A DNA stretch of 64,000 nucleotides, taken from an uncultured virus (IMG/VR IMGVR_UViG_2562617116_000002) (Duplodnaviria; Heunggongvirae; Uroviricota; Caudoviricetes). This document shows, piece after piece, positions 22,415 to 63,736 of this stretch (positions are counted from its first letter, which is position 1; each line of letters starts with the position of its first letter). The DNA lies in IMG/VR virus record IMGVR_UViG_2562617116_000002, positions 1 through 64,000 of that record. The stretch is one strand, 5' to 3'. The position numbers and the translations under genes are program-made. The notes beneath the pieces were generated by a model. The model did no database searches, was not told the DNA's origin, and saw only the letters and a list, made by a program, of their open reading frames with translations.

Positions 22415-22972
22415 GTGAGCGAAATGGCAAACGAAGTTTTTCCGATTAAATCAAAACGCGATTACAACAAGTTTATAAATGCGTTGAAACCTGGCCGTGA
22501 TCGAAACCTAGGCCAATTAGGCACTGCGTTCGGCCTGCGTATCAGCGACTTGTTAAAGTTTAAAATCGGAGAGCTTCGTGGCCATAAGTCGATCACGATT
22601 TGGGAGAAGAAACGGAAGAAAAAGCGTGTGATCACGTTCAGCCCTTCCGTTCTCAAAATCGTTAACCAACTCGAAGGCGATGACGACGATTACGTATTCG
22701 CCAGTCGGCAAGGTGGCGGCAAGCCGATCACCCGCGTTCAGGCATATCGTATCTTAAACGATGCAGCCAAACGGGCCGGAATTTACGAAAAGATCGGCGG
22801 CATCGGTACGCACTCGCTCCGTAAGACGTTTGGTTACCGCCTATATGAAAACGGCGTTGATATTACGCGCATCATGTCGATACTCAACCACTCAAGCGAG
22901 CGCGAGACGTTGAGATATATCGGGATTACAGCCGACGAGATATCGGAAGCTTACGAAAGCATCGAGGTTTAG
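22415..22972 (+). CDS. Small tyrosine recombinase (catalytic domain only)
   Basis: 'GLRISD', 'HSLRKTF', 'LNHSS..ETLRYI'; own TTGACT-N18-TAATAT promoter near 22354-22383. Confidence 0.9.
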   Translation: MSEMANEVFPIKSKRDYNKFINALKPGRDRNLGQLGTAFGLRISDLLKFKIGELRGHKSITIWEKKRKKKRVITFSPSVLKIVNQLEGDDDDYVFASRQGGGKPITRVQAYRILNDAAKRAGIYEKIGGIGTHSLRKTFGYRLYENGVDITRIMSILNHSSERETLRYIGITADEISEAYESIEV

Positions 22973-27273: not shown

Positions 27274-28083
27274 TTGTTTATTTCGCCCATGCTGCTTGAA
27301 TCCGCAAAGGAGCCGTTTAACTCTGACGACTATATCACGGAAACCAAATTCGATGGCATCCGTCTGATCGCGTCTAGGAATAACGGTTTAATCCGCCTCT
27401 ACACTCGCCACAACAACGAAGTCACCTCTAAATTTCCGGAACTATTAACGCTCGACATACCGGACGGCACCATATTAGACGGCGAGCTTATCGTACCTGG
27501 TCCGACAGGCGCTGGCGATTTCGAGGCCGTCATGGAACGGTTCCAGTCGCGAAAAAGTTATCATCCGATAGTGTTTTGCGTTTTTGATGTCCTGCGGATA
27601 GAAGGCGTTTCGGTTACGTCCAAGCCGCTAAGTGAACGAAAAGAATTGCTGGCCGGTCTAAAAATCGATCATCCTAACGTTAAAGTAGTCGAAGGCGTTC
27701 GCGGCCATGCTACGGATTATTTCGAATTAGTCCGCGAAAATAAGATCGAGGGAATCGTTATGAAGCGGGCAGACGCTCCATATACGGAAAATAAGCGGTC
27801 GGATCGCTGGCTGAAGATCGTAAACTACGAATATACTGACGTTTTGATTACGGGATTGCGCAAGGAAGACAATGCGTTGCTGCTTTCATACCTGGACGGC
27901 CAGTATGCCGGCGTGATGGAATTTATGCCGTATGGTGAGCGGCGGAAGCTACATGCGGATAGAGTAATCGTGGAGGAAACGGAGAGGTATGCCTATATCG
28001 AGCCGATTGGGTGCCGCGTTAAGCACCGGTTCAAGACGAAAAACGGCTTGCTTCGGATTCCTTCGTTCCATGAATGGCGTTGA
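27274..28083 (+). CDS. ATP-dependent DNA ligase
   Basis: 'ETKFDGIR', 'LDGEL', 'VFDVL', 'EGIVMK', 'WLKI'. Confidence 0.92.
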   Translation: MFISPMLLESAKEPFNSDDYITETKFDGIRLIASRNNGLIRLYTRHNNEVTSKFPELLTLDIPDGTILDGELIVPGPTGAGDFEAVMERFQSRKSYHPIVFCVFDVLRIEGVSVTSKPLSERKELLAGLKIDHPNVKVVEGVRGHATDYFELVRENKIEGIVMKRADAPYTENKRSDRWLKIVNYEYTDVLITGLRKEDNALLLSYLDGQYAGVMEFMPYGERRKLHADRVIVEETERYAYIEPIGCRVKHRFKTKNGLLRIPSFHEWR

Positions 28084-29275: not shown

Positions 29276-30069
29276 TTATTCATATTTAGATAAATCGTCT
29301 TCAACTTGTATCTGGTCGAGACGCTTATTAATTATTTCTATATACTCTTTTTCGGTCTCGAATCCAATCCACTTGCGATTATTTAATTCACAAGCTACTG
29401 CTGTTGTTCCGCTGCCTAAACAGTTATCAAGTACCGTATCACCTTCGTTGGTGTAAGTCTTGATAAGGTATTCAAATAATTCAACTGGTTTCTGTGTCGG
29501 ATGCAAACCTGTATCATTTTTAAACTCCAAAAGGCTGTTCGGATAACCTGTTTTTGTTTGTTTGTACGAGTCTTTCAATCCTGGTCTATCACCGCCATAA
29601 TTAGCTCTCATTGTTTTGTTGTTTTTTACTGTTTTATCTATTTCCAATAGACCTTGTGGAAAGTACCTCATTTTGTTTTTGGAATTTGTAGGAATTCCGC
29701 CTTTACTGAAAACTAAAACATTTTCGTGCTTCTTCATCGGTTTGTTTTTTGCGTCAAACGCCCCCCAACTATACTTTTAATCCATATCCACTCATATTTA
29801 AAAAGTTCTATTTTGCTATTAACCAACTGACTTGTAAAAGGTTGAGAAGCTGTTAAGACTATTGCTCCGTTGTCTTTTATGATGCGTTCGTATTGATCCC
29901 AAAGCGGTTCAAAGGGGATTATAGTATCCCACTTACAAGCGGTCGTTCCATATGGTAAATCACACAAAATCATATCCACGCTCCCGGCGGGAATTAATTT
30001 CATACCCTCTAGACAATCCATTTGATATGCTCTATTTAACTCTAAACTTCCCAATAACTCTTTCCCCAC
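29276..30069 (-). pseudogene. Beta-class N6A/N4C DNA methyltransferase frameshifted at a G6 tract
   Basis: 'DLPY' in the 5' ORF; 'HPTQKP' and 'DNCLGSGTT' in the 3' ORF; one extra G at 29761-29766 joins them. Confidence 0.85.
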
Positions 30070-30289: not shown

Positions 30290-30799
30290 TTACTGTTTTA
30301 CCTTGTTAGGTGCATACCCAATTTTTTCGCCGGTTGCGATATTGACCGTAAATTGTCCCGGCGTTTTTCCTTTTACAAAATCGTTATAACGGTTCCTTCG
30401 CTCTTTATTTCGCGCCCTGGCCGCCCTATCAACGAACTTTTCCTCATATGAAGAGCGTTTTCTTCGCGTCGGAACTTTGTAATTCCGGCCATCCGCTCCA
30501 TACTCTTCAGCAAGTTTTTCGGAAGCTTCCGACTTGATGCGCTCTTCTCGTTGTGTCTCGCTCATGATCGGGTACTCTTCGCGAGCCATTTTATCCGGGT
30601 GTGGGTTCGTTAGCTCTTCGTAGATTACAAGATTCGCCATACGTTCAAGCGCGATAGAATCTGGATGCTCTCCAACGGCATCAAAGTAAGCGTCGGCCAG
30701 CGCAGTAATTTCCTCGATACGTTGAATGCGGTCCAGCTCTCCGGACTTTGTTCGTTGGTACATATCCGTAATCATTTCGTGCAATAGCGCTTTATCCAT
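30290..30799 (-). CDS. Hypothetical protein coupled to the sigma region-4 gene
   Basis: GGGAGG then MDKALL; overlaps the upstream stop. Confidence 0.7.
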   Translation of the reverse strand: MDKALLHEMITDMYQRTKSGELDRIQRIEEITALADAYFDAVGEHPDSIALERMANLVIYEELTNPHPDKMAREEYPIMSETQREERIKSEASEKLAEEYGADGRNYKVPTRRKRSSYEEKFVDRAARARNKERRNRYNDFVKGKTPGQFTVNIATGEKIGYAPNKVKQ

Positions 30800-31181
30800 T
30801 AATTCGTCCTCCCGTCGAGTATCCTTCGCCATGTCCCGCCCAATAGTAGTAAATATCCGCAATTGAATCGGCTGCACGATTTATCAGATGATTAATCGAA
30901 TCCTTGCCAACTCCCATCTGTTTCCCCGCCTCGACTTGCGTCAGATCTTCGAAATATACGAGCCGGATGGCATCGCGCTGCCTATCAGTTAGATCCGCAA
31001 GCTCAATCGCATTGTGCAGATCCAGCAGCACTTCGGCAGCTTCGTATTCTCCGAGTCGTTTGCGGCTGACGAACTTCGGATAATCGGAGAGCAGCGTTTT
31101 AACACCCTCCGCATTGTCTAGCGCATATGTCGCTTCAAATTCGCGATCCTTTCGGTGTAGATCGACTTTGACTGATCCCAT
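30792..31181 (-). CDS. Sigma-70 region-4 HTH protein (probable late activator)
   Basis: 'LTDRQRDAIRLVYFEDLTQVEAGKQMGV'. Confidence 0.8.
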   Translation of the reverse strand: MGSVKVDLHRKDREFEATYALDNAEGVKTLLSDYPKFVSRKRLGEYEAAEVLLDLHNAIELADLTDRQRDAIRLVYFEDLTQVEAGKQMGVGKDSINHLINRAADSIADIYYYWAGHGEGYSTGGRING

Positions 31182-35816: not shown

Positions 35817-35834
35817 TCGAAAACCTCCTCGTTA

Positions 35835-35863
35835 ATAACTGCGCATATACTTTCATAATGGCA
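35835..35863 (-). promoter_or_regulatory. Putative phage-sigma promoter (dut)
   Basis: TGCC-N16-CGCAGTTAT directly before the GAGGAGG RBS. Confidence 0.6.
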
Positions 35864-35865
35864 AA

Positions 35866-36949: not shown

Positions 36950-38329
36950 TTAAACGACACACGACAAGCAGCCTTCCTGTCCTGTATCTTTAGTTCGCGC
37001 ATAGTACAGCGTCTTGATCCCTTTGTGATGCGCGTAAAGGTCAATTCGGTTAAGATCGCGTGTCGTCATCGTATCTTTTAAGAACAGCGTAAATGAGATG
37101 CCCTGATCGACATGTTGCTGGATCGTCGCGATCATATCGACAACTTTGAACATATCCATGTCGTACGCTTCCTTATAGAAGAACCAATTCTTTGCGCTAA
37201 GCCCCGGCATCGGATAATACGTCTTGGAATTTCCGTATGTCCTTTCCTCAATCCGCTCCATAATCGGCATGACCGACGCCGTTGCCGACTGAACGTACGA
37301 AATAGATCCCGTCGGTGCAATCGCGAGTCTGTACGAATGGTAGAGTCCGTATTTTCGTACGTTATCCTCCAGCCGAACCCAATCGATGCGTTCCGGAATT
37401 TCAACGCCTTCAAACATCTTCGCGACCTTCTCCGTTTTAGGAAGGAAATCTCCTGCGACGTACTTATCGAAGTAGCTTCCGTCCGCATACGTTGATCCTT
37501 CGAATCCCTCGAACGTGCTGCCGGTTTCCTTCGCAAGCTCCATCGACCGCACCAGCGACCAATAATTGACGAGCGCAAAGAATACGTTAGCGAAGTCGCG
37601 AGCCTCTTCCGATTCATAAGCGATCCCATTCTGCGCAAGATATCCGTGTAGATTCATCGCGCCAAGTCCGATCGAACGCATCTGACGGTTAGCCTTAGCG
37701 ACTGCCGGCGCGTTCTTAATATTCGTTGATTCTGATACGACCGTCAGCGAATCGACTGCGAGCTTAACTGTTTGCTCGATCGACTTATTCGCCATGACGT
37801 TCGCAATGTTCAGCGATCCGAGATTGCACGAGATGTCGAGGCCGATTGCGTCCTCTTCGCCGTAGTCGGTGTACTCCGATACTTTGGACGCCTGAAGCAC
37901 CTCCGAACACAAATTCGAAAATTTAACCTTCGAAATGTGATTCAGCGCATGCGCCGCGTTTACGTTATCTTCGAACATTAGATATGGGTACCCCGATTCG
38001 GACCGTAGAATCGCAAGCTTTTCGAGCAGCTGTCGCGGGTTGATTTTATCTTTCCGAACGTTCGGATTCTCGACGAGCTTGTCGTACATTTCTCCGATAT
38101 CCATTTCGTCAAGATGCTCGCCGTATTCCTTATAGACCGTATGTGGATAGAAAACGTATGCGTCCCGGTCTTCACGAGCCAGTTCGATGAATTTATCCGG
38201 AATGACTACGCCGATCGATAGCGTCTTGACCCGAACATCTTCATCTGCGCTGATCTTCTTCGTATCCAGGAACGCGTCAATGTCCGCATGGAATACGTTA
38301 AGATACGCTGCACCGGCTCCCTGTCTTTG
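36950..38329 (-). CDS. nrdE: Class Ib RNR alpha subunit, exon 2
   Basis: Begins QRQGAGAAYLN; 'SNLCSE', 'APTGSISY', 'TLYY', terminal CLSC. Confidence 0.93.
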   Translation of the reverse strand, partial: QRQGAGAAYLNVFHADIDAFLDTKKISADEDVRVKTLSIGVVIPDKFIELAREDRDAYVFYPHTVYKEYGEHLDEMDIGEMYDKLVENPNVRKDKINPRQLLEKLAILRSESGYPYLMFEDNVNAAHALNHISKVKFSNLCSEVLQASKVSEYTDYGEEDAIGLDISCNLGSLNIANVMANKSIEQTVKLAVDSLTVVSESTNIKNAPAVAKANRQMRSIGLGAMNLHGYLAQNGIAYESEEARDFANVFFALVNYWSLVRSMELAKETGSTFEGFEGSTYADGSYFDKYVAGDFLPKTEKVAKMFEGVEIPERIDWVRLEDNVRKYGLYHSYRLAIAPTGSISYVQSATASVMPIMERIEERTYGNSKTYYPMPGLSAKNWFFYKEAYDMDMFKVVDMIATIQQHVDQGISFTLFLKDTMTTRDLNRIDLYAHHKGIKTLYYARTKDTGQEGCLSCVV

Positions 38330-39266
38330 CAGACCATTCGGACGTGTTCGCTACGCACGCCCCGCCTTTCGGCTGCTCCGTGTTACCACGAAGATTAGAC
38401 TATATCTTCGCCCACGTGGGGCGCCTCCTGTTTCGACTGCCAATCGCTTGCAGCCTACGGCTTTCACCTAGTCGTTGCACGTTCAAGACGTTTTATCGAG
38501 ATGTTTCCATCTATGCCGCCAACAGATCTTCTCGACTATCGATTTACTCGCGTATGAGTGAGCTTTTCGTATTTCCGAAACGCTCTTACCGCTTTGATAT
38601 TCTTGCAATATAGATCTCGCTTGTTGTTCGGTGATTTTGGATGACGGATGACTTTCACCGACGCAAAGCAACCCGTGTTTTGAGGCGTGCTGAGCATTCT
38701 CTTTTGGTGTCACCCACTCCAGATTATCGATGCTAGGGTTTGACTTATCCCCGTCAATATGATTTACTTGCGGTAGATTGTTCGGGTTGGGTATAAAGTG
38801 AAGAGCTACTAAACGGTGAACCCGTCTGCCAACAGCTTTACCGTCTCTGTAGAGAGTTACTTTGACGTACCCTTCTCGATCTTTCTTTGTTTTGACCAAA
38901 GTCATACGTCTTAAATTAACAACTCGACTATGGTTGGTGATTCCGTAATCAGGAAAACCTTCTATAGGAACCAACTCTTCTCCATCTTCCAGAACGAAGG
39001 GTATTTTCGTCTTCCGTAGCCCCATCTTCATTACCCGATGATTTATTGCTTCTCTTGAAACCCCTAACACCTCACCGATTTCTCTAGCGCTCATTTTGTA
39101 GTAATTCTCGCGAATAAAATCCTCATCGATATCCAATTTGTTATGCGGTCGTCTTGCTTCGCTCATGATCGTCCTCCTTTAGTAGTTTTTGGCCCTACCG
39201 CTTTGAGGAGTTCCCATGAATTAAAGAGGTTTTCGATCGCCATTGCTGACGAAAGGGGCCAATTCA
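38330..39266 (-). ncRNA. Group I intron (937 nt) in nrdE
   Basis: Exon ends in U (ATG GGT), paired with GCCC (P1); R 'GCAACGACUA' and S 'AAGAUAUAGUCU'; terminal G; splicing restores DQMG|QRQG. Confidence 0.92.
38483..39166 (-). CDS. Intron-encoded HNH homing endonuclease (I-HmuI-like core)
   Basis: 'VHRLVA..FIPNP..LPQVNHIDGDKSN...NLEWVT..EN..H'. Confidence 0.92.
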   Translation of the reverse strand: MSEARRPHNKLDIDEDFIRENYYKMSAREIGEVLGVSREAINHRVMKMGLRKTKIPFVLEDGEELVPIEGFPDYGITNHSRVVNLRRMTLVKTKKDREGYVKVTLYRDGKAVGRRVHRLVALHFIPNPNNLPQVNHIDGDKSNPSIDNLEWVTPKENAQHASKHGLLCVGESHPSSKITEQQARSILQEYQSGKSVSEIRKAHSYASKSIVEKICWRHRWKHLDKTS

Positions 39267-39986
39267 ACCCATTTGATCCGCATACCGGAACGCATTGTCG
39301 AGCAGCTTCATGACGCCGACGACGCCTTTCGTCGAATTCTCAACGCCCTTGATCGCTTCGCCTTTCGCCCTGATTTTCGATAGATTAAGCGAGACGCCAC
39401 CGCCAAGTTTCGAAAGCTGCATCGCCATGTCTACCGCGCGACTGATATCGTTCAGAGAGTCGCCGACTTCGAGAAGGAAGCACGATACGAGTTCGCCGCG
39501 TCGCTTCCGTCCGGCATTTAAGAACGTCGGCGTGGCCGGTTGATATTCCTGACGGATCATCATTTCCGCAAACTCGACCGCCTTGGCTGCGTCTCCTTTC
39601 GCGAAGAATAGCGCACAGATGGCGATTCGGTCTTCGTAGCGTTCGAGGATCTTCTTCTTATCGTTCGTCTTCAGCGCGTAATCGTTATAAAACTTGAACG
39701 CACTCATAAACGAAGGGAAACGGAACTTTTTCGCGTAGGCTGCCTTGTAGACCGCTTTGATTTCGTCGAACGTATACGGCTCGAAGACTTCGCGTTCGTA
39801 ATAGTCGTTCTCGATCAGATAGTCGAGCTTTTCGCGCAGATCATGGAAAAATACCGTATTCTGATTCACGTAATCTATGAAATAACTGCGGACGGCTTCG
39901 GCATCCTTTTCGAATTGAAATCCGCCGTTTTTCCGTATCATAATTTCGTTATTAAGTTCGATATACTTCGCGTGTTTATTCGTCAA
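39267..39986 (-). CDS. nrdE: Class Ib RNR alpha subunit, exon 1
   Basis: 'PATPTFLNAG', 'LVSCF', 'SKLGGG'. Confidence 0.95.
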
Positions 39987-50341: not shown

Positions 50342-50977
50342 TTATACAGCAAGATAAACACTAATATCGCCGTGCTGTGATGCGTCATAGTTTTTCGCAA
50401 GTTTGCGAATCTCACGTGTTACGGTGTAGTGGTGAACACCTAGCTTACGTCCAATTTGCCGGGCGCTAGGTTGTTCGGGTGAAAGATGTTCTTTAACGAT
50501 TGCCGTCGTTAAAGCATCTGAGTTATTCGTTAGGGCCTCGATAAGTTGCCGCTTATCGTGGTCCGTTTTTATTTCGCCTGATACTCGATCAACTACATAA
50601 GATTCTAAATCGAAATCCGATGCAGATTCGAATGTTGCCGCATTCTCCTCCGCGGTCGTGTCTAACGGAATTGATCGCTTAACATATGTCCCATTCTTTT
50701 TCCTGGTAACATCGATCGCAGCTCTTGCTAAGTGTAGTTTGAAGTGGCTAACAACATCGGTTGATTTTTGCTTGTCGAAGTTCTTTGCACACCACCAAAC
50801 TCGTTCGTTTAATTCACTTACAATTTCATCCCGCAATACCGCGCTTGTTCTTGAGTATTTCCTCGCGATATTTGAAACCATAGATTTGAAATGATCAAAT
50901 ATGTTTCGGAATGATTGGCTGCTCCCTGTGGTCTGGAACTCATCAATCAGCTTTATTAAGTTTTTTTCGTGTTCCAA
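50342..50977 (-). CDS. Phage sigma-70-family sigma factor
   Basis: Region 2-like 'FKSMVSNIARKY...DEIVSELNERVWWCAKNFD'; region 4 HTH 'SARQIGRKLGVHHYTVTR'. Confidence 0.75.
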   Translation of the reverse strand: MEHEKNLIKLIDEFQTTGSSQSFRNIFDHFKSMVSNIARKYSRTSAVLRDEIVSELNERVWWCAKNFDKQKSTDVVSHFKLHLARAAIDVTRKKNGTYVKRSIPLDTTAEENAATFESASDFDLESYVVDRVSGEIKTDHDKRQLIEALTNNSDALTTAIVKEHLSPEQPSARQIGRKLGVHHYTVTREIRKLAKNYDASQHGDISVYLAV

Positions 50978-50998
50978 CTATCATTTCCCCTTTCAATA

Positions 50999-51030
50999 AT
51001 AACTGCGAATCTTGGATAAAGATTGGCACA
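50999..51030 (-). promoter_or_regulatory. Putative phage-sigma promoter (sigma gene, autoregulatory)
   Basis: TGTGCC-N17-CGCAGTTAT, 22 nt before the TTG. Confidence 0.6.
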
Positions 51031-51105
51031 TGTTTTTTTATTTTTTTTATAAGTTTTTCTTCCATGACCATATATTAGCATGATTTGATATTGAATTTTC
51101 TGAAA

Positions 51106-51139
51106 GTGAACAAGGTTTTGAAATACTACTTTTGTTCAC
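51106..51139. promoter_or_regulatory. Candidate AimR operator
   Basis: GTGAACAA-N18-TTGTTCAC downstream of the aimP terminator and upstream of an extended -10 (TGcTAATAT). Confidence 0.6.
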
Positions 51140-51158
51140 ACGTTTAAACAAAATGGAT

Positions 51159-51187
51159 AAATAAAAGCCGCCCTAAATGGGCGACCT
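51159..51187 (-). terminator. aimP terminator
   Basis: GGTCGCCC-ATTTA-GGGCGGCT followed by TTTATTT. Confidence 0.8.
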
Positions 51188-51191
51188 TGTC

Positions 51192-51320
51192 CTAACCTCC
51201 TATGATATTAATTGCAAGTTCTTTCTGCTGTTCTACTCCGCCACCATTAATTGATTTAAGCGCTAACCCTCCTGCCACAACTACTCCCAACACTAAAGCA
51301 ACTGATAAAATCTTTTTCAA
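51192..51320 (-). CDS. aimP: Arbitrium pro-peptide; predicted mature peptide INIIGG
   Basis: AAAGGAGAGG then TTG; MKKILSVALVLGVVVAGGLALKSINGGGVEQQKELAINIIGG; signal peptide; overlaps the aimR 3' end. Confidence 0.85.
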   Translation of the reverse strand: MKKILSVALVLGVVVAGGLALKSINGGGVEQQKELAINIIGG

Positions 51321-52485
51321 ATAAAACCTCTCCTTTTGGATTACCTTTACTTAGATTAGCAAGAGATTTAACAAACTCGGAATTTTCCCCCGCGTTGATC
51401 AAATCCCTCACAATAATAACTGCGAAATAAAGATTGGAATTGGCAACGAAATAGTGAAATTTTTTATACAAACTTTCAACTTTTTTTCCTTCCATACTTC
51501 TAAGGTAATCCAATAAATCGAGATCGCCGACTTTTTTAACATTTTTCTCTGCTTCAGAAAAGGAGATTTTTCCTTCTTTATAGCGCTGAACTGATAAAAC
51601 TGATTCGTGATCATCTTTATCTAATTCAATAGACAGGAGAAGTTTCCCCATACTCAGGTTATATTCTGAAACCTCCATTATTAACTCTGAATTAGTTTCC
51701 GCGGCCGTAGCGCAACTCTTCTCAAGGAAAAAAAGACATTTTTTGGGGCTTTTAATTAGATAAGACATACCTAACACATAATAGGCATCTGATTCAGCTC
51801 TTTTGTTGATATTAGATTGCAGAATAATACTAGCGTAGTGCCTAGCCTCTTCTAAGTTGTTCAAAAACAAATTCGCGACGGAAAGTACCTCCGATAGACG
51901 AAACAGATAGCATTCCTTTAAGAACAGCCGTGTCTTGTCGCTCAAAGATTTAATTTCGGCCTCGATATCAGCTGCCTTATCTATTAAGTAGGAGAATTGA
52001 CGTTTGTGTAGTAGAACGATGCATTTGTAGATATTCAAGAGAATTTTTAAAGAAGCATCACTGATGTTTTTTAAGGCAGACAGCGCGTCGCCCATTTGGT
52101 GAAATTTTGTTTCGCCAGTCATATAACTGTATATAAAAGAGTAAACCTTCACATACTGACCAATAACTCCTTTTGTTGTCCTGTGTTTGGTTAACAATTG
52201 GTTTAATAGTCCAACATCACGTGTTACAGCAGCATACTCAAATGTGTTTTTAATACAATCATCTGTTCTCATTTTAAGGCACCACTGACGCATTTTGCTT
52301 TTATAATTTTTAGGATCTACAAGAAGAATTAGGCGCAATACATTTCTAAAAGTTAACTCCCTCTGTCCGCTTTTTAGGTAATAAACCTGTCTTGTAGAAA
52401 TATTTAAAAAGTCCGCAACTTTTTTGTCATCCAAGTCATCTCTGTCTTCAATTTTATTAAATAAGAACTCCCTTACACCTTCCAT
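51256..52485 (-). CDS. aimR: Arbitrium receptor (HTH plus TPR, RRNPP family), 409 aa
   Basis: N-terminal HTH, 'FEYAA..R...LL..L', TPR 'SDAYYVLGMSYL'; followed by the secreted peptide gene. Confidence 0.85.
   Translation of the reverse strand: MEGVREFLFNKIEDRDDLDDKKVADFLNISTRQVYYLKSGQRELTFRNVLRLILLVDPKNYKSKMRQWCLKMRTDDCIKNTFEYAAVTRDVGLLNQLLTKHRTTKGVIGQYVKVYSFIYSYMTGETKFHQMGDALSALKNISDASLKILLNIYKCIVLLHKRQFSYLIDKAADIEAEIKSLSDKTRLFLKECYLFRLSEVLSVANLFLNNLEEARHYASIILQSNINKRAESDAYYVLGMSYLIKSPKKCLFFLEKSCATAAETNSELIMEVSEYNLSMGKLLLSIELDKDDHESVLSVQRYKEGKISFSEAEKNVKKVGDLDLLDYLRSMEGKKVESLYKKFHYFVANSNLYFAVIIVRDLINAGENSEFVKSLANLSKGNPKGEVLFEKDFISCFSVGSSCGRRVSA
51416..51445 (-). promoter_or_regulatory. Putative phage-sigma promoter for aimP inside aimR
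   Basis: TGCC-N17-CGCAGTTAT about 95 bp upstream of the aimP start. Confidence 0.55.
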
Positions 52486-52510
52486 GTAATTCACCCCGAT
52501 TAAATAATGA

Positions 52511-52574
52511 ATGACTTTTATTCCCTGATTAAGTATAATTGAATTATAACGAAAATGTTTATACGTGTAAACAT
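52511..52574. promoter_or_regulatory. Face-to-face SigA promoters (aimR and xre) with a palindromic operator
   Basis: Plus ATGACT-N17-TATAAT; minus TTTACA-N17-TATAAT; ATGTTTA-N6-TAAACAT at 52555-52574. Confidence 0.65.
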
Positions 52575-52594
52575 ATTTTTTAGGAGGATTTTCA

Positions 52595-52816
52595 ATGGTT
52601 GATTTTTCGCCTTTATTCGATACTTTAAGAGAAAAAGGAATGAAACTGAGTGATTTGAGACAAGTTATCAGTTCCAGGACGCAAGCTAGTATTAAAGAAA
52701 ACCACTTACAAAAAAATCTCAAAATGTATATAGGTACCCTGGAAAAAATCTGCTTATTCCTAGAGGTGCCCGTTGAGAAAGTCATTAAAATAGTTCCTGA
52801 TAACGTAGAAAAATAA
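52595..52816 (+). CDS. Xre/Cro-family HTH regulator
   Basis: TAGGAGG RBS; 'TLEKICLFLEVPVEKVI'. Confidence 0.8.
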   Translation: MVDFSPLFDTLREKGMKLSDLRQVISSRTQASIKENHLQKNLKMYIGTLEKICLFLEVPVEKVIKIVPDNVEK

Positions 52817-52862
52817 CGATATTTAAGCTATAATTTCCCCGTGAAGCAAAAGCTTTGCGGAG

Positions 52863-53090
52863 GTGTTTAATACGGTTAAGTATCGTCGAGGTAAATGTTT
52901 ACTTCGCGACCGACTCCGTGAAGCTGGAATGAACCAAGCGCAGCTCGCCGATAGGTCTGGCGTTAAAGAATCGCATGTATCCGGTTATGTACACGGAACA
53001 AAACGGATGAACCTTGATACTGCGAAAACTTTTTCGGTAATTCTAAACTGCCGCATGGACGACCTGTACGAATGGATCGTCGAGGAATAA
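52863..53090 (+). CDS. Xre/Cro-family HTH regulator
   Basis: 'MNQAQLADRSGVKESHVSGY...DDLYEW'. Confidence 0.85.
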   Translation: MFNTVKYRRGKCLLRDRLREAGMNQAQLADRSGVKESHVSGYVHGTKRMNLDTAKTFSVILNCRMDDLYEWIVEE

Positions 53091-61477: not shown

Positions 61478-61537
61478 CTTCAAACTGTGAAGTAGGTCAC
61501 TTCAAGTCATGAAGGGGGTTACTATCGTTTTTTGAAG
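61478..61537. repeat. Palindromic iteron-like sites, 22-bp period
   Basis: CTTCA-N5-TGAAG at 61478 and 61500, partial third copy at 61522-61537; AT-rich tract adjacent. Confidence 0.65.
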
Positions 61538-61871
61538 TGCCGGAGTAAAACCACTCCGCCGGCTCCCACAACGTATACTCATTCGACGTCTGCCCGTTCT
61601 CTGTTTTGCGCTCGGTAATATCGATTAATTCGAGTTCCTTTAGTCGACGCAATGCTGCCCGAACTGTATTCGAAGAGCATCGACATTTGTCTGCGATAGT
61701 CTGTACGCTTGGATGCGATTTCTTACTCGTGTTGTCTGCGTAAAAACACAAGATCGAATATACGAGTTTCTGTATCGGCTTATCTAAATACGTCTCGTCT
61801 TCGAGGACCGCTTTCGTAACGCGGACGAACCTGTGGTCGTGGAAATCAATCGGTCGCTTTTCGTTTGTCAT
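61497..61871 (-). CDS. Winged-HTH protein (replication initiator N-terminal type)
   Basis: 'KLVY..L..YA...SHPS..TIA..C.CS..TV..AL..L...I...R...SNEY'. Confidence 0.8.
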   Translation of the reverse strand: MTNEKRPIDFHDHRFVRVTKAVLEDETYLDKPIQKLVYSILCFYADNTSKKSHPSVQTIADKCRCSSNTVRAALRRLKELELIDITERKTENGQTSNEYTLWEPAEWFYSGTSKNDSNPLHDLK

Positions 61872-61878
61872 TCGTTTA

Positions 61879-62310
61879 TCACCCCGCAATCTCTTTCGTA
61901 ATGATCTCCGGAAATTCTAAGTGGTCATCGAAAAATAACCGGCCATTTGCGCCTACAAAAGCGTTGCTTCCGACCGTATTCGAATACCTCAGCGTAATGC
62001 TTCTCTTATGCGGAAGATCCCGCCAAACTAGATACGCCGTTTTTCCGGAGTAAAAGTCGTGTAGCGCGAGGATGTCGAAATCCTCTTTGCTGTAATGCTT
62101 ACTAGATGCACTCGGCCGGGTGATATCAAATTTAACCTTTTCGCCGTCTTCTGAACGCGCGCTTTTCACCTGAACCCGATATGCCTTTCCGTCTTTCTCA
62201 ACGAGCATGTCACATTCCGTATTCCCCATCGTAGGCAAGTACGGCTCGTAGCCCTTCAATATAAGATCGCTTACTACGAGCATTTCCGCCGCTGCTCCCG
62301 TAATCCTCAT
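61879..62310 (-). CDS. PD-(D/E)XK endonuclease (I-Ssp6803I-like)
   Basis: 'GAAAE', 'CDML', 'RVQVK', 'Y...DFD'; start uncertain. Confidence 0.7.
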   Translation of the reverse strand: MRITGAAAEMLVVSDLILKGYEPYLPTMGNTECDMLVEKDGKAYRVQVKSARSEDGEKVKFDITRPSASSKHYSKEDFDILALHDFYSGKTAYLVWRDLPHKRSITLRYSNTVGSNAFVGANGRLFFDDHLEFPEIITKEIAG

Positions 62311-62361
62311 TCTCGGTAATATGACAACCGCCTCCTTTGCGTTAGTAACTCCCCGCTGTAG

Positions 62362-62640
62362 CCTTCACAAGATAATACCCGCGACTTTTCAAAACCGCAC
62401 AATAAATCCGGAAATTTTTCCGTCTTCACTTATACAACCCCACAAGTAACGCCGTTTTTGGGACATCGACTCCGAGAAAATTATTTTCCGCCTTCACTTA
62501 TAACTGCGCAACGACTTTCCGAAATGGACACCGTTTTTAAAATTTCGCTGTCATAGATAACTGCGAAGTCATTTCCGGAATGGCACACGTTTTTCTGCGT
62601 TCATTATTAGTTGCGTATAAAGTTTCCGGATCGGACAGCG
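62362..62640 (-). promoter_or_regulatory. Tandem array of 3 clear and 2 degenerate phage-sigma promoter-like units
   Basis: Units at 62500-62530, 62557-62587, 62607-62637; weaker at 62431-62465 and 62372-62401. Confidence 0.65.
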
Positions 62641-62677: not shown

Positions 62678-63736
62678 CTATTTGCGTCGCGTTTTTCGTT
62701 CCTTATTAAGTTTTCCAGTTATTTGTGCTAGAGGAGAATGTTTTTTATGTTGGGCTTTTAGCGACTGCTTTGACAAGTGAGTATATCGTTTCACCATTCG
62801 CATATCTGCGTGACCTAGAAGGGCTTGTAGGTGTCTTATATCTCCGCCATCCTCTAAAAACATCGTAGCGCCTGTGTGTCTTATCAGGTGTGGATGTACT
62901 CGTTTCTTTATGCCCGCTTTCTCCGCATAAGTATTTAGTCGCTGTCTGAAATGGTTTGTTGTCATTTTTTCTCCATAGTTTGTTAGGAAGACATAGTCAC
63001 TATCAAAATCCTCATTTTCCTTAATTAATTCTTTTAAGAGGTTCATCGTCCTTTTTTCTAACGGGACAAATCTCCCTTTCCGTGTTTTGACGTCCCACGC
63101 GCTAAGATACACTGTGTCAGATGAGAAATCGACATTGTCCTCAGTTAACGACAATATCTCACCGACACGTGTCATCGAGTCGATTAAACAGGTTAACGCA
63201 ACATAATCGCGAAACCCTACATACGAACGTTGATCCGGAATGGAAAGTAATTTCCGCATTTCATCCGGAGATAAGATATTGACCATCTCTTCCGGATCTG
63301 TCACCAATTTCGTCTCTTCGAAAGGATTTTCAGCCGCAGACCCTGCTTTTATACAAAAACGAAAAAACGTCCGCATAGTTTTTATGTAGTCGTTAACCGA
63401 TTTCGGGGAGAGTCCGGGCGTCTTATGTTCGTCCTTCTTAAATTTATGGCCGTCGAATTTTACGCGCTCATGCAGGAGCCACGATACGAATCCGCGCGCA
63501 AAGTCAACGTCGATATCTCGTATATCATCGCCTACACCGACCATCTTCGCGTACTCAAGTAAATAACGACAGGCACGCATATACCGATCTATTGTTTCGG
63601 GAGCCCTATTTTCCGCTCTCTTTGCGTCGCATAGTTTTTCAAACATCGTTGTTATCGAATAAATACCACTGCGTTTAGTCTTCGTTAAAGACCTTCCGTT
63701 TTTAACTCGCTTCCCCTTCCGTCGTTCTGAATGCAT
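62678..63736 (-). CDS. int: Tyrosine integrase
   Basis: 'TRVGE', 'HLIRHT', 'LGHAD...KRY'; adjacent to the tRNA att site. Confidence 0.93.
   Translation of the reverse strand: MHSERRKGKRVKNGRSLTKTKRSGIYSITTMFEKLCDAKRAENRAPETIDRYMRACRYLLEYAKMVGVGDDIRDIDVDFARGFVSWLLHERVKFDGHKFKKDEHKTPGLSPKSVNDYIKTMRTFFRFCIKAGSAAENPFEETKLVTDPEEMVNILSPDEMRKLLSIPDQRSYVGFRDYVALTCLIDSMTRVGEILSLTEDNVDFSSDTVYLSAWDVKTRKGRFVPLEKRTMNLLKELIKENEDFDSDYVFLTNYGEKMTTNHFRQRLNTYAEKAGIKKRVHPHLIRHTGATMFLEDGGDIRHLQALLGHADMRMVKRYTHLSKQSLKAQHKKHSPLAQITGKLNKERKTRRK

What the first reader, a model, noticed from the sequence alone, without database searches (positions are those of the whole stretch)
50342..52485. Arbitrium wired to a phage sigma factor that appears to drive both itself and aimP
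Seen: the minus-strand motif TGCC-N16/17-CGCAGTTAT lies 22 nt upstream of the sigma gene (50999-51028). It also lies inside the 3' end of aimR about 95 bp upstream of aimP (51416-51445), before dut (35835-35863) and in an array before the early operon. Known: AimR activates lytic genes and is inhibited by AimP, and host phr genes use an alternative-sigma (SigH) promoter inside the upstream rap gene. Inference: AimR turns on the sigma gene, sigma amplifies itself and opens the replication operons, and sigma also transcribes aimP. Peptide output would then report lytic commitment rather than mere infection. I do not know of this feedback architecture being described.
Basis: partly seen in the sequence, partly recalled or inferred. 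Interest (0 to 1): 0.88.

Follow-up and report, generated by a model that had tools for sequence, protein, structure and literature searches.

The report
Arbitrium cassette wired to phage sigma
A temperate Bacillus phage places its peptide-signalling genes directly in front of its own sigma factor gene, and a promoter-like element shared with that gene and the replication operons is also kept inside the receptor gene just ahead of the signal-peptide gene.

Summary
A bipartite element (GTGyCC or TGCCA, then 15-16 nt, then yGCA-GTTAT-like) lies on the coding strand before the sigma gene, before dut, in an array before the early replication operon, and inside the 3' end of aimR 95 nt before aimP. 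Seven diverged relatives (AimR 45-55%, sigma 47-58% identical) all keep aimR-aimP directly upstream of the sigma gene, and all keep both copies.

The aimR-internal copy is not a by-product of coding. Given the peptide, the codons used give near-maximal motif scores (P 0.0001-0.005 in each of 6 lineages). Its lineage-specific variants track those of the sigma-upstream copy (P = 3/5040).

Two more distant phages of the same gene order, Mgbh1 and KLEB27-1, each carry a different bipartite element at the same positions, and a third (G045) has its own at the sigma gene at least. This points to a phage-encoded reader.

The protein folds as a sigma-70/ECF-like factor. A conserved terminator, a 32-bp inverted repeat and an extended -10 lie between aimP and the sigma gene.

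No transcription data exist, so every regulatory arrow is inferred. I found no description of a sigma factor as arbitrium output. Verdict: new variant of a known kind, testable in cultured phages.

The parts
52543..52571 (-). SigA-type promoter of aimR-aimP (TTTACA, 17 nt, TATAAT)
   Evidence: Consensus scan, 11 of 12 matches. Function inferred.
51256..52485 (-). aimR, arbitrium peptide receptor (409 aa)
   Evidence: Pfam AimR 9.6e-23. NCBIfam lysogeny_AimR 3.3e-59, 200.8 bits against a cut-off of 70.
51414..51447 (-). Class-A bipartite element inside the aimR 3' end, 95 nt before aimP: the proposed sigma-dependent aimP promoter
   Evidence: Scores 28.7 bits with a matrix built without any aimR site and ranks 2nd in the window. 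Synonymous resampling P=0.00078. Conserved in 7 of 7 lineages.
51192..51320 (-). aimP, 42-aa propeptide, TTG start, overlaps the aimR 3' end, ends AINIIGG
   Evidence: ORF and translation. The C-terminal pentapeptide varies between lineages (NIIGG, NAIGG, NKIGG, NQLGG), read from the alignment.
51164..51188 (-). Intrinsic terminator after aimP
   Evidence: Terminator scan: 10 pairs, of which 6 G-C, plus a T-run. A hairpin plus T-run is present at this place in all 7 lineages, with different stem sequences.
51107..51138 (.). Inverted repeat TGAACAA-N18-TTGTTCA, the probable AimR operator
   Evidence: GAACA...TTGTTC is invariant in 7 lineages. It is the only such repeat in the window. Its size and place match the 31-bp palindromic SPbeta AimR site downstream of aimP (PMC6536502, passages seen). 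Binding not tested.
51072..51080 (-). Extended -10-like TGCTAATAT (proposed AimR-dependent promoter P1 of the sigma gene)
   Evidence: TG.TA.TAT is invariant in 7 lineages. No -35 match was found by the scan. Inferred.
50997..51030 (-). Class-A bipartite element 21 nt before the sigma start codon (proposed autoregulated promoter P2)
   Evidence: Both boxes are conserved while the spacer varies in 7 lineages. Spacing between the boxes is fixed at 16 nt.
50342..50977 (-). Phage sigma-70-family (ECF-like) factor, 211 aa, TTG start
   Evidence: Sigma70_r2 26.7 bits against a cut-off of 24. TIGR02937 6e-08 but below its cut-off. AlphaFold model with two helical domains, mean pLDDT 72. Nearly all of the listed Foldseek PDB hits are sigma factors, with weak E-values.
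62498..62638 (-). Three tandem class-A elements before the early (replication) operon
   Evidence: 22.3-27.7 bits for two copies and 14.7-15.4 for the middle one with the first matrix. Aligned. Equivalent arrays follow the integrase in G001, G003, G004 and G005.
62346..62468 (-). Two degenerate copies, the last resembling the sigma-upstream element of the distant lineage G045
   Evidence: Alignment, sequence, comparison.
35833..35865 (-). Class-A element 18 nt before dut (dUTPase, then thyX)
   Evidence: 22.1 bits. dUTPase 1.8e-24. Thy1 1.4e-34. Equivalent sites in G002 and G003.
52595..53090 (+). Two small HTH genes (73 and 75 aa) divergent from aimR. Candidate repressor or Cro-like pair.
   Evidence: HTH_26 and HTH_3. 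PHROG transcriptional repressor or regulator families for the second gene. Role not tested.

Best explanation
The window is a roughly 65-kb temperate siphophage of the Bacillus subtilis group in which the arbitrium module controls a phage sigma factor instead of a small AimX.

Proposed circuit:
1. A near-consensus SigA promoter transcribes aimR-aimP, and transcription stops at a terminator.
2. Peptide-free AimR binds the 32-bp inverted repeat just downstream and allows expression of the sigma gene. It does this either by activating the -35-less extended -10 promoter or by letting transcription pass the terminator.
3. The ECF-like sigma recognises the class-A element (GTGyCC/TGCCA, 15-16 nt, yGCA-GTTAT). 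This element sits before its own gene (positive autoregulation), in tandem before the early replication operon, and before the dut-thyX block.
4. A further class-A element written into the codons of the aimR 3' end gives a sigma-dependent aimP transcript. Cells that have switched the sigma on therefore make extra peptide. This closes a loop: AimR to sigma to AimP, which inhibits AimR.

Shown here: the anatomy, its conservation, nucleotide-level selection on the internal copy, co-variation of the copies, and the sigma fold. Inferred: who binds what, every transcript start, and the direction of each arrow.
For: Linkage. aimR lies directly upstream of the sigma homologue in 15 of 15 viral loci, 2 of 2 genome loci and 3 of 3 metagenome loci. 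Phage phi18-2 has the same gene order.

The element behaves like a regulon mark. A matrix built only from the 7 sigma-upstream sites ranks the aimR-internal site 1st or 2nd genome-wide in 5 of 6 complete genomes, and tied for first in the sixth (G005). With a matrix of 29 non-aimR sites there are 38 hits of at least 18 bits on the coding strand of the 6 genomes, 0 on the other strand, and 0 in reversed-sequence controls. The 6 untrained aimR-internal sites score 25-31 bits and rank 1-5.

The match is not a coding by-product. Elsewhere in aimR only 10 of 91 invariant-residue codons keep their third base. Resampling synonymous codons gives P = 0.00078, 0.00132, 0.00042, 0.00012, 0.00492 and 0.00022 in the six lineages.

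Co-variation. Lineage-specific variants (CGCAGT, TGCAGT, CGCAAC, CGCATC; GTCC against TGCC or GGCC) are shared by the two copies of one phage. Summed Hamming distance is 19 against a permutation mean of 34.3, P = 3/5040.

Mgbh1 has no arbitrium and a distant sigma homologue (tblastn 3e-12). It has a different bipartite element at its sigma gene, after polA and at the early operon (25, 25, 24 and 19 of 25 positions). KLEB27-1 has its own element before the gene at the sigma position, at the early operon start and before the dut block (26, 22 and 22 of 26, next best 17). G045 has yet another.

Not SigA-like. No class-A site is called by the sigma-70 consensus scan.

Sigma identity.

AimR control is supported by the conserved terminator, inverted repeat and extended -10, and by the geometry of the SPbeta operator. 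Conserved promoters in front of ECF sigma genes are usually their own targets; this is established knowledge that I recall, not a result of a call.
Against: There is no transcript-start, binding or expression evidence. The four runs laid were contigs at low depth.

Sigma identity is modest by sequence. Pfam is just above its cut-off, NCBIfam is below its cut-off, the best PDB sequence hit is 1e-4, and Foldseek TM-scores are 0.25-0.42.

The element is about 45 nt long including a conserved stretch after the -10-like box, which is longer than a sigma needs. In the early and dut copies the spacer carries a conserved CGGAAAGT-like box that the sigma-upstream and aimR copies lack. A second protein may therefore be involved.

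Within one genome several -10 variants coexist, so co-variation of the two copies cannot be due to sigma specificity alone.

The internal copy is absent in KLEB27-1 (best 15 of 26, background level) and unconvincing in G045 (P = 0.03, and at another place in aimR).

A second sigma-like protein, with region 4 only, is encoded at 30792-31181.

If the early operon depends on the phage sigma, another route must start the sigma gene. The proposed P1 has no tested activity.
Confidence: 0.58

Rival explanations
1. The class-A element is read by something other than the 211-aa sigma. Candidates are a phage DNA-binding protein (one of the small HTH proteins, or the region-4-only protein at 30792-31181) acting as activator or repressor at host-polymerase promoters, or a host alternative sigma. 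The sigma gene would then be just one more member of that regulon.
For: The element is long, and the early and dut copies carry a conserved, partly palindromic box (TTCCGGAA-like) in the spacer. This is typical of an operator. Several candidate regulators are encoded. No call links the sigma protein physically to the element.
Against: The whole element is asymmetric and is found on the coding strand only: 38 hits against 0. It has two boxes at fixed 15-16 nt spacing and lies directly before ribosome-binding sites. It changes completely between phages whose hosts are all listed as Bacillus, which a conserved host sigma would not explain. It always precedes the gene at the sigma position. From recall only, it matches no known B. 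subtilis sigma consensus.
Confidence: 0.2
2. The aimR-internal element is a working promoter, but its purpose is not aimP. Its transcripts pass the aimP terminator when AimR is active and so feed the sigma gene, giving an AimR-gated positive loop. Extra peptide would be a side effect.
For: AimR of SPbeta-type phages is described as an anti-terminator (Introduction of PMC13220667, passage seen). Here a terminator sits between aimP and the inverted repeat. The internal and sigma-upstream copies share lineage-specific variants.
Against: The inverted repeat lies downstream of the terminator, not before it, and the sigma gene already has its own copy 21 nt from its start. Any transcript from the internal site must contain aimP with its strong ribosome-binding site. 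Peptide output therefore rises either way.
Confidence: 0.1
3. The copies are replication or packaging repeats (iterons) or relics of recombination between modules, and the aimR-internal copy is carried along by gene conversion without a function of its own.
For: There are tandem copies next to replication-initiator genes: the DnaD-like gene at 61497-61889 and the array at 62346-62638. The arbitrium cassette has 35% G+C in a 47-50% phage, so it was acquired as a module. Concerted evolution could mimic co-variation.
Against: Single copies sit at a fixed short distance before the start codons of the sigma gene (16-20 nt after the 13-nt box) and dut in several lineages. The array periods are irregular: 50, 57, 65 and 64 nt. 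Conversion would have to respect the reading frame of aimR in 7 lineages while the spacer codons differ. Synonymous positions are near-optimal for the matrix in 6 of 6 lineages.
Confidence: 0.07
4. The match inside aimR is a coincidence of a conserved peptide (V-S/A-x-S-N-L-Y/F-F/Y-A-V-I-I) and codon bias.
For: The peptide is among the best conserved in AimR of this clade. In the distant lineage G045 a partial match elsewhere in aimR is largely dictated by the peptide: null mean 18.4 of 27, observed 21.
Against: Resampling that keeps the peptide and the gene's codon usage gives P 0.0001-0.005 in 6 of 6 lineages, and in three of them the observed score equals the maximum seen. Rare codons are used at the motif: GTG for Val in 6 of 7 lineages against 1-4 GTG among 17-27 Val codons per gene, and TCC for Ser in 5 of 5. 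Residue changes V/T/S follow the sigma-upstream variant.
Confidence: 0.05

Closest known systems
SPbeta/phi3T arbitrium (AimR-AimP-AimX)
   Same: An AimR-family receptor, an overlapping downstream aimP propeptide ending xxxGG, and a widely spaced palindrome downstream of aimP before the regulated gene.
   Different: The regulated gene is a 211-aa sigma-70-family protein in the same orientation. It is not a short AimX peptide or RNA. The signal gene also has a second, non-SigA-like promoter element inside aimR. In the papers I read, three AimX mechanisms are listed and none is a sigma (Discussion of 10.1101/2025.11.23.689978).
Extended arbitrium module AimX-AimC-AimL (Kabel et al. 2025 preprint)
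   Same: Arbitrium controls entry into the early replication operon. Small HTH genes lie next to the module.
   Different: That module is defined by a small HTH gene immediately downstream of the arbitrium genes in the opposite direction, followed by a second HTH gene (Results section read). Here the downstream gene is the co-directional sigma, and the two HTH genes lie upstream of aimR. This locus would fall in their 'generic RP' class.
rap-phr cassettes with an internal phr promoter
   Same: [quoted passage not shown] That this promoter depends on SigH is recalled from McQuade et al. 2001, which I did not see.
   Different: Here the proposed alternative sigma is encoded by the phage itself and would be the output of the same signalling system. 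The peptide promoter would thus be inside the loop it controls.
Autoregulated ECF sigma factors and phage sigma cascades (for example SPO1 gp28); recalled, not searched
   Same: A small two-domain sigma with a conserved bipartite promoter before its own gene and before a set of operons.
   Different: No anti-sigma gene is evident next to it. The trigger would be a peptide-sensing receptor. It is not a member of a curated ECF family (below the NCBIfam cut-off).

Membership tests
Arbitrium system | AimR-family TPR receptor with N-terminal HTH | tested here: met
   Pfam PF22871 9.6e-23. NCBIfam NF038310 200.8 bits against a cut-off of 70.
Arbitrium system | Short secreted propeptide gene directly downstream of aimR, with the mature peptide at the C-terminus | tested here: met
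   42-aa ORF with a hydrophobic N-terminus ending AINIIGG. The C-terminal pentapeptide differs between lineages. Secretion and processing were not tested.
Arbitrium system | AimR operator downstream of aimP, and peptide-sensitive expression of the next gene | tested here: inconclusive
   A conserved 32-bp inverted repeat lies between aimP and the sigma gene in 7 of 7 lineages and is unique in the window. Binding and peptide response cannot be tested with these tools.
Extended arbitrium (AimX-AimC-AimL) | Small HTH gene immediately downstream of aimP in the opposite direction, followed by a divergent second HTH gene | tested here: not met
   The gene after aimP is the co-directional 211-aa sigma. 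The HTH pair lies upstream of aimR. The definition was read.
SPbeta-like arbitrium | Short aimX (peptide or RNA) after the AimR site, within an SPbeta-type genome | tested here: not met
   No conserved short ORF lies between aimP and the sigma gene: the A-rich stretch has indels between lineages. The genome is a roughly 65-kb siphophage with polA, nrd and dut, syntenic with phi18-2 and Mgbh1. sroDEF was not searched.
Sigma-70 family (ECF-like, groups 3/4) | Region 2 domain | tested here: met
   PF04542 26.7 bits against a cut-off of 24, residues 27-95. PDB profile hits to the sigma region 2 of SigB-type, FliA and ECF factors, best 1.1e-4.
Sigma-70 family (ECF-like, groups 3/4) | Region 4 helix-turn-helix, and the overall two-domain fold | tested here: met
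   HTH hits at residues 167-192 are below their cut-offs. The model has helical domains at 2-95 and 139-210 joined by a low-confidence linker. Nearly all listed Foldseek PDB hits are sigma factors, but the scores are weak (E 2.6e-4 and worse, TM 0.25-0.42).
Sigma-70 family (ECF-like, groups 3/4) | Passes a curated family threshold for ECF sigma factors | tested here: not met
   TIGR02937 32.5 bits against a cut-off of 42.9. No PHROG family matches.
Sigma-70 family (ECF-like, groups 3/4) | Binds core RNA polymerase and directs initiation at a cognate promoter | not testable with these tools
   Only indirect evidence: a conserved bipartite element lies before its own gene and before three operon starts.

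The most novel reading that the evidence does not exclude
Arbitrium here has a fourth kind of output: a phage ECF-like sigma that acts as the master switch of the lytic programme, covering itself, replication and nucleotide metabolism. The phage has also written that sigma's promoter into the coding sequence of aimR. Signal production is thereby driven by the outcome of the decision. The peptide then reports how many cells have committed to lysis, not how many were infected, and it feeds back negatively on the switch.
Probability: 0.45. Interest if true: 0.8.

Novelty: new variant of a known kind. Interest (0 to 1): 0.72.

Why it matters
How arbitrium reaches the lytic genes is known for only a few designs. 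A 2025 preprint lists three AimX mechanisms and leaves a class of systems without recognised neighbours.

A sigma factor as the direct output would be a simple and readable design, because one promoter type marks the whole regulon. A signal gene placed under that sigma changes what the signal measures and adds a feedback loop. Both matter for models of phage decision-making.

The internal promoter is also a clear case of regulatory sequence maintained inside a coding region by selection on synonymous sites and on residue choice.

The family includes cultured temperate phages of B. subtilis: 268TH002 and 268TH007 (whole text of PMC9476937 read, which mentions neither arbitrium nor the sigma), and phi18-2. 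Every step can therefore be tested at the bench.

Tried and rejected
Transcript evidence. The look-up of sequencing runs gave 21 rows, all kept as Logan contigs. Laying X1, X2, X4 and X18 gave low-depth contig pieces and no table of starts or ends. Nothing can be said about expression.

Literature gap. Stokar-Avihail et al. 2019, the survey of arbitrium contexts, is not held. It may describe this context and I could not check. The supplements of the 2025 preprint are closed and may list these loci.

Tandem Repeats Finder on the early array returned 0 rows.

Homology of KLEB27-1 gp51 (annotated as a sigma by its depositors) to this sigma family: BLASTP E 0.87, hhalign probability 0.2%, no Pfam hit. 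It is only a positional analogue. The G045 and Mgbh1 homologues also have no Pfam hit on their own.

An aimR-internal copy in distant lineages. In G045 there is a 21-of-27 match in the middle of aimR, but the peptide alone gives 18.4 on average (P = 0.03). At the equivalent 3' position only an 8-nt identity was seen by eye. In KLEB27-1 the best match is 15 of 26. Neither counts as support.

Co-variation between the region-4 helix and the -35-like box. The window and L014 have divergent helices and use GCC instead of TCC at the sigma and aimR copies. However, GCC copies also occur in every other genome. I left this as a hint.

The class-A matrix finds nothing of at least 14 bits in the G045 region.

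A possible short ORF starting after the extended -10 (50943-51071) is not conserved in length or frame.

The genus-wide genome search added only one new lineage: 3 of 49 genomes had a match, and two of those were already known.

The structure tool was not ready and accepted the job.
Full report
What is there.

The window is almost entirely one temperate siphophage read on the minus strand. In order it carries:
- an integrase (62678-63736);
- an early operon with a PD-(D/E)XK protein, a DnaD-like initiator, a helicase and a Toprim primase;
- two small HTH genes on the plus strand;
- aimR, aimP and a 211-aa sigma-like gene;
- an SSB-like protein, DNA polymerase I and nrdIEF;
- dut and thyX;
- a region-4-only sigma-like protein;
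- terminase, portal and structural genes.

The record is an IMG/VR provirus of 67,579 bases. The nearest named relatives are the temperate B. subtilis phages phi18-2, 268TH002 and 268TH007, which have the same gene order. The sigma family is found only in the B. subtilis group. The aimR-aimP stretch has 35% G+C against 47-50% around it.

The observation.

The exact 9-mer CGCAGTTAT occurs seven times, always on the coding strand. The stated positions and distances are correct.

The element is better described as two boxes. The first is GTGTCC or TGCCA. The second, 15-16 nt later, is yGCA followed by GTTAT-like letters. A further conserved stretch follows it and coincides with the ribosome-binding site where a gene follows directly. 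Before the early operon there are three good copies and two degenerate ones.

Is the sigma a sigma?

Pfam region 2 is just above its cut-off. The NCBIfam ECF superfamily model matches at 6e-08 but below its cut-off. A family profile finds sigma region 2 of several solved sigma factors, best 1.1e-4. An AlphaFold model built from 27 sequences has two helical domains with a disordered linker and mean pLDDT 72. Nearly all of the listed Foldseek hits in the PDB are sigma factors (SigB, SigH, sigma-32, ECF SigK/E/W/L/H, sigma-S, WhiG, SigI), but the scores are weak: E 2.6e-4 at best and TM 0.25-0.42. I accept it as a divergent sigma-70-family protein of ECF-like size.

Conservation.

All 15 viral loci that encode a sigma homologue have aimR just upstream. 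So do the 2 genome loci and the 3 metagenome loci.

Seven lineages were compared. They differ by 42-53% in the sigma and 45-55% in AimR. Upstream of the sigma gene the two boxes are kept, the 16-nt spacer is free, and the start codon is TTG throughout. Between aimP and the sigma gene every lineage also keeps:
- a terminator hairpin, with different stem sequences;
- the repeat GAACA...TTGTTC;
- TG.TA.TAT.

The repeat is unique in the window. It resembles in size and place the 31-bp palindromic AimR site of SPbeta (passages of PMC6536502). aimR itself has a near-consensus SigA-type promoter.

The copy inside aimR.

A matrix made from the seven sigma-upstream sites alone ranks the aimR-internal site first or second in five of six complete genomes, and tied for first in the sixth. 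I then made a matrix from 29 sites that excludes all aimR sites. With it the six genomes have 38 hits of at least 18 bits on the coding strand, none on the other strand, and none in reversed controls. The six aimR sites score 25-31 bits.

Third codon positions in aimR are otherwise saturated: 10 of 91 are invariant. Keeping the peptide and drawing synonymous codons by the gene's own usage, the real sequence is matched or beaten in only 0.01-0.5% of 50,000 draws in each of six lineages. In three lineages it equals the best draw. Rare codons (GTG, TCC, C-ending Phe/Tyr) are used exactly where the boxes need them.

The residue after the invariant Ala changes V, T, S in step with the variant of the sigma-upstream box. 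In lineage L012 a TTT codon matches a T in the sigma-upstream copy. Pairing each phage's two copies gives the smallest possible summed distance, 19 against a mean of 34.3, P = 3/5040.

Who reads the element?

There is no direct evidence. Four indirect arguments point to the phage sigma:
- The element always precedes the sigma gene.
- It is asymmetric, strand-specific and bipartite with fixed spacing.
- The sigma-70 consensus scan does not call it.
- It is replaced by quite different bipartite elements at the same genome positions in more distant phages of the same gene order.

For the last point, Mgbh1 has no arbitrium and a distant sigma homologue. Its element lies at the sigma gene, after polA and at the early operon. 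KLEB27-1 has an AimR of 31% identity, an aimP-like ORF, and a gene annotated as sigma that is not detectably related. Its element lies before that gene, at the early operon start and before the dut block. G045 has an element at the sigma gene, plus a second, weaker match (21 of 27) that I did not assign to a gene. A conserved host factor would not explain such turnover.

Three points count against a simple picture. The element is long. The early and dut copies carry an extra CGGAAAGT-like box in the spacer. Several -10 variants coexist in one genome. A second protein may take part.

Limits of the aimP wiring.

aimP is co-transcribed with aimR anyway, so the internal element can only add to its expression. 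In KLEB27-1 no internal copy exists. In G045 the only candidate is weak and lies elsewhere in aimR. The feature is therefore specific to the class-A clade.

Comparison with what is known.

My searches were: arbitrium with sigma factor and aimP; arbitrium, AimR and sigma; arbitrium and phage-encoded sigma; AimR and ECF; and AimR and anti-terminator. Where I opened the hits they were reagent suppliers or unrelated host sigmas; the rest I judged from the listings only, including the three hits, which I did not open. None appeared from title or abstract to describe a sigma factor as arbitrium output.

The 2025 preprint on arbitrium outputs does not contain the word sigma. It lists three AimX mechanisms (Discussion) and defines the majority architecture by a downstream opposite-strand HTH gene (Results), which this locus lacks. 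The genome announcement of 268TH002/007 mentions neither arbitrium nor the sigma (whole text). The 2019 survey by Stokar-Avihail et al. was not available.

The nearest functional parallel is rap-phr, where phr is sometimes driven by a promoter inside rap (legend seen). The SigH dependence of that promoter is recalled.

Verdict.

It is a new variant of arbitrium and is directly testable in cultured phages.

Noticed in passing
window 36950-39986 (-): nrdE is in two pieces: the N-terminal part at 39264-39986 and the barrel at 36950-38104. A 227-aa ORF (38483-39166) lies between them. In phi18-2 the equivalent ORF is annotated as an HNH endonuclease. It looks like an intron or homing-endonuclease insertion.
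   Followed up: no
window 30792-31181 (-): A 129-aa protein with sigma-70 region 4 only (2.3e-10) lies at the end of the nucleotide-metabolism block and before the packaging genes. Equivalents in phi18-2 and KLEB27-1 are annotated as sigma factors. It is probably a late-gene activator. No class-A element lies before the late genes.
   Followed up: partly
window 51000-53000: aimR-aimP and the adjacent HTH gene have 35% G+C against 47-54% in the flanks. Mgbh1 has the same gene order without aimR-aimP. The cassette therefore looks inserted in front of a pre-existing sigma gene.
   Followed up: partly
window 62500-62640 and 35840-35860; G001-G005 equivalents: The spacers of the early-operon and dut copies carry a conserved CGGAAAGT-like box, partly palindromic (TTCCGGAA). 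The sigma-upstream and aimR-internal copies lack it. It may be an operator that separates two promoter subclasses.
   Followed up: no
window 22415-22972 (+): A second, short tyrosine-recombinase ORF (185 aa, 7.3e-26) sits on the opposite strand near the terminase. The announcement of 268TH002/007 also notes two such genes.
   Followed up: no
L016 and L019 (B. halotolerans contig), and L008: In L016/L019 the sigma homologue is broken: it matches only from residue 83, and the genome search shows two pieces with a TAA between them. Both class-A copies are intact there. In L008 aimR is in three pieces. These look like decaying prophages.
   Followed up: no
G002 (L025-L028) 43381 and 52508: Two identical 22-bit class-A-like sites lie 9 kb apart in one provirus. 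This suggests a duplicated segment.
   Followed up: no
window 29276-29737 (-) and 27274-28083 (+): An N6/N4 DNA methylase fragment and an ATP-dependent DNA ligase on the opposite strand lie between the metabolic and packaging blocks.
   Followed up: no
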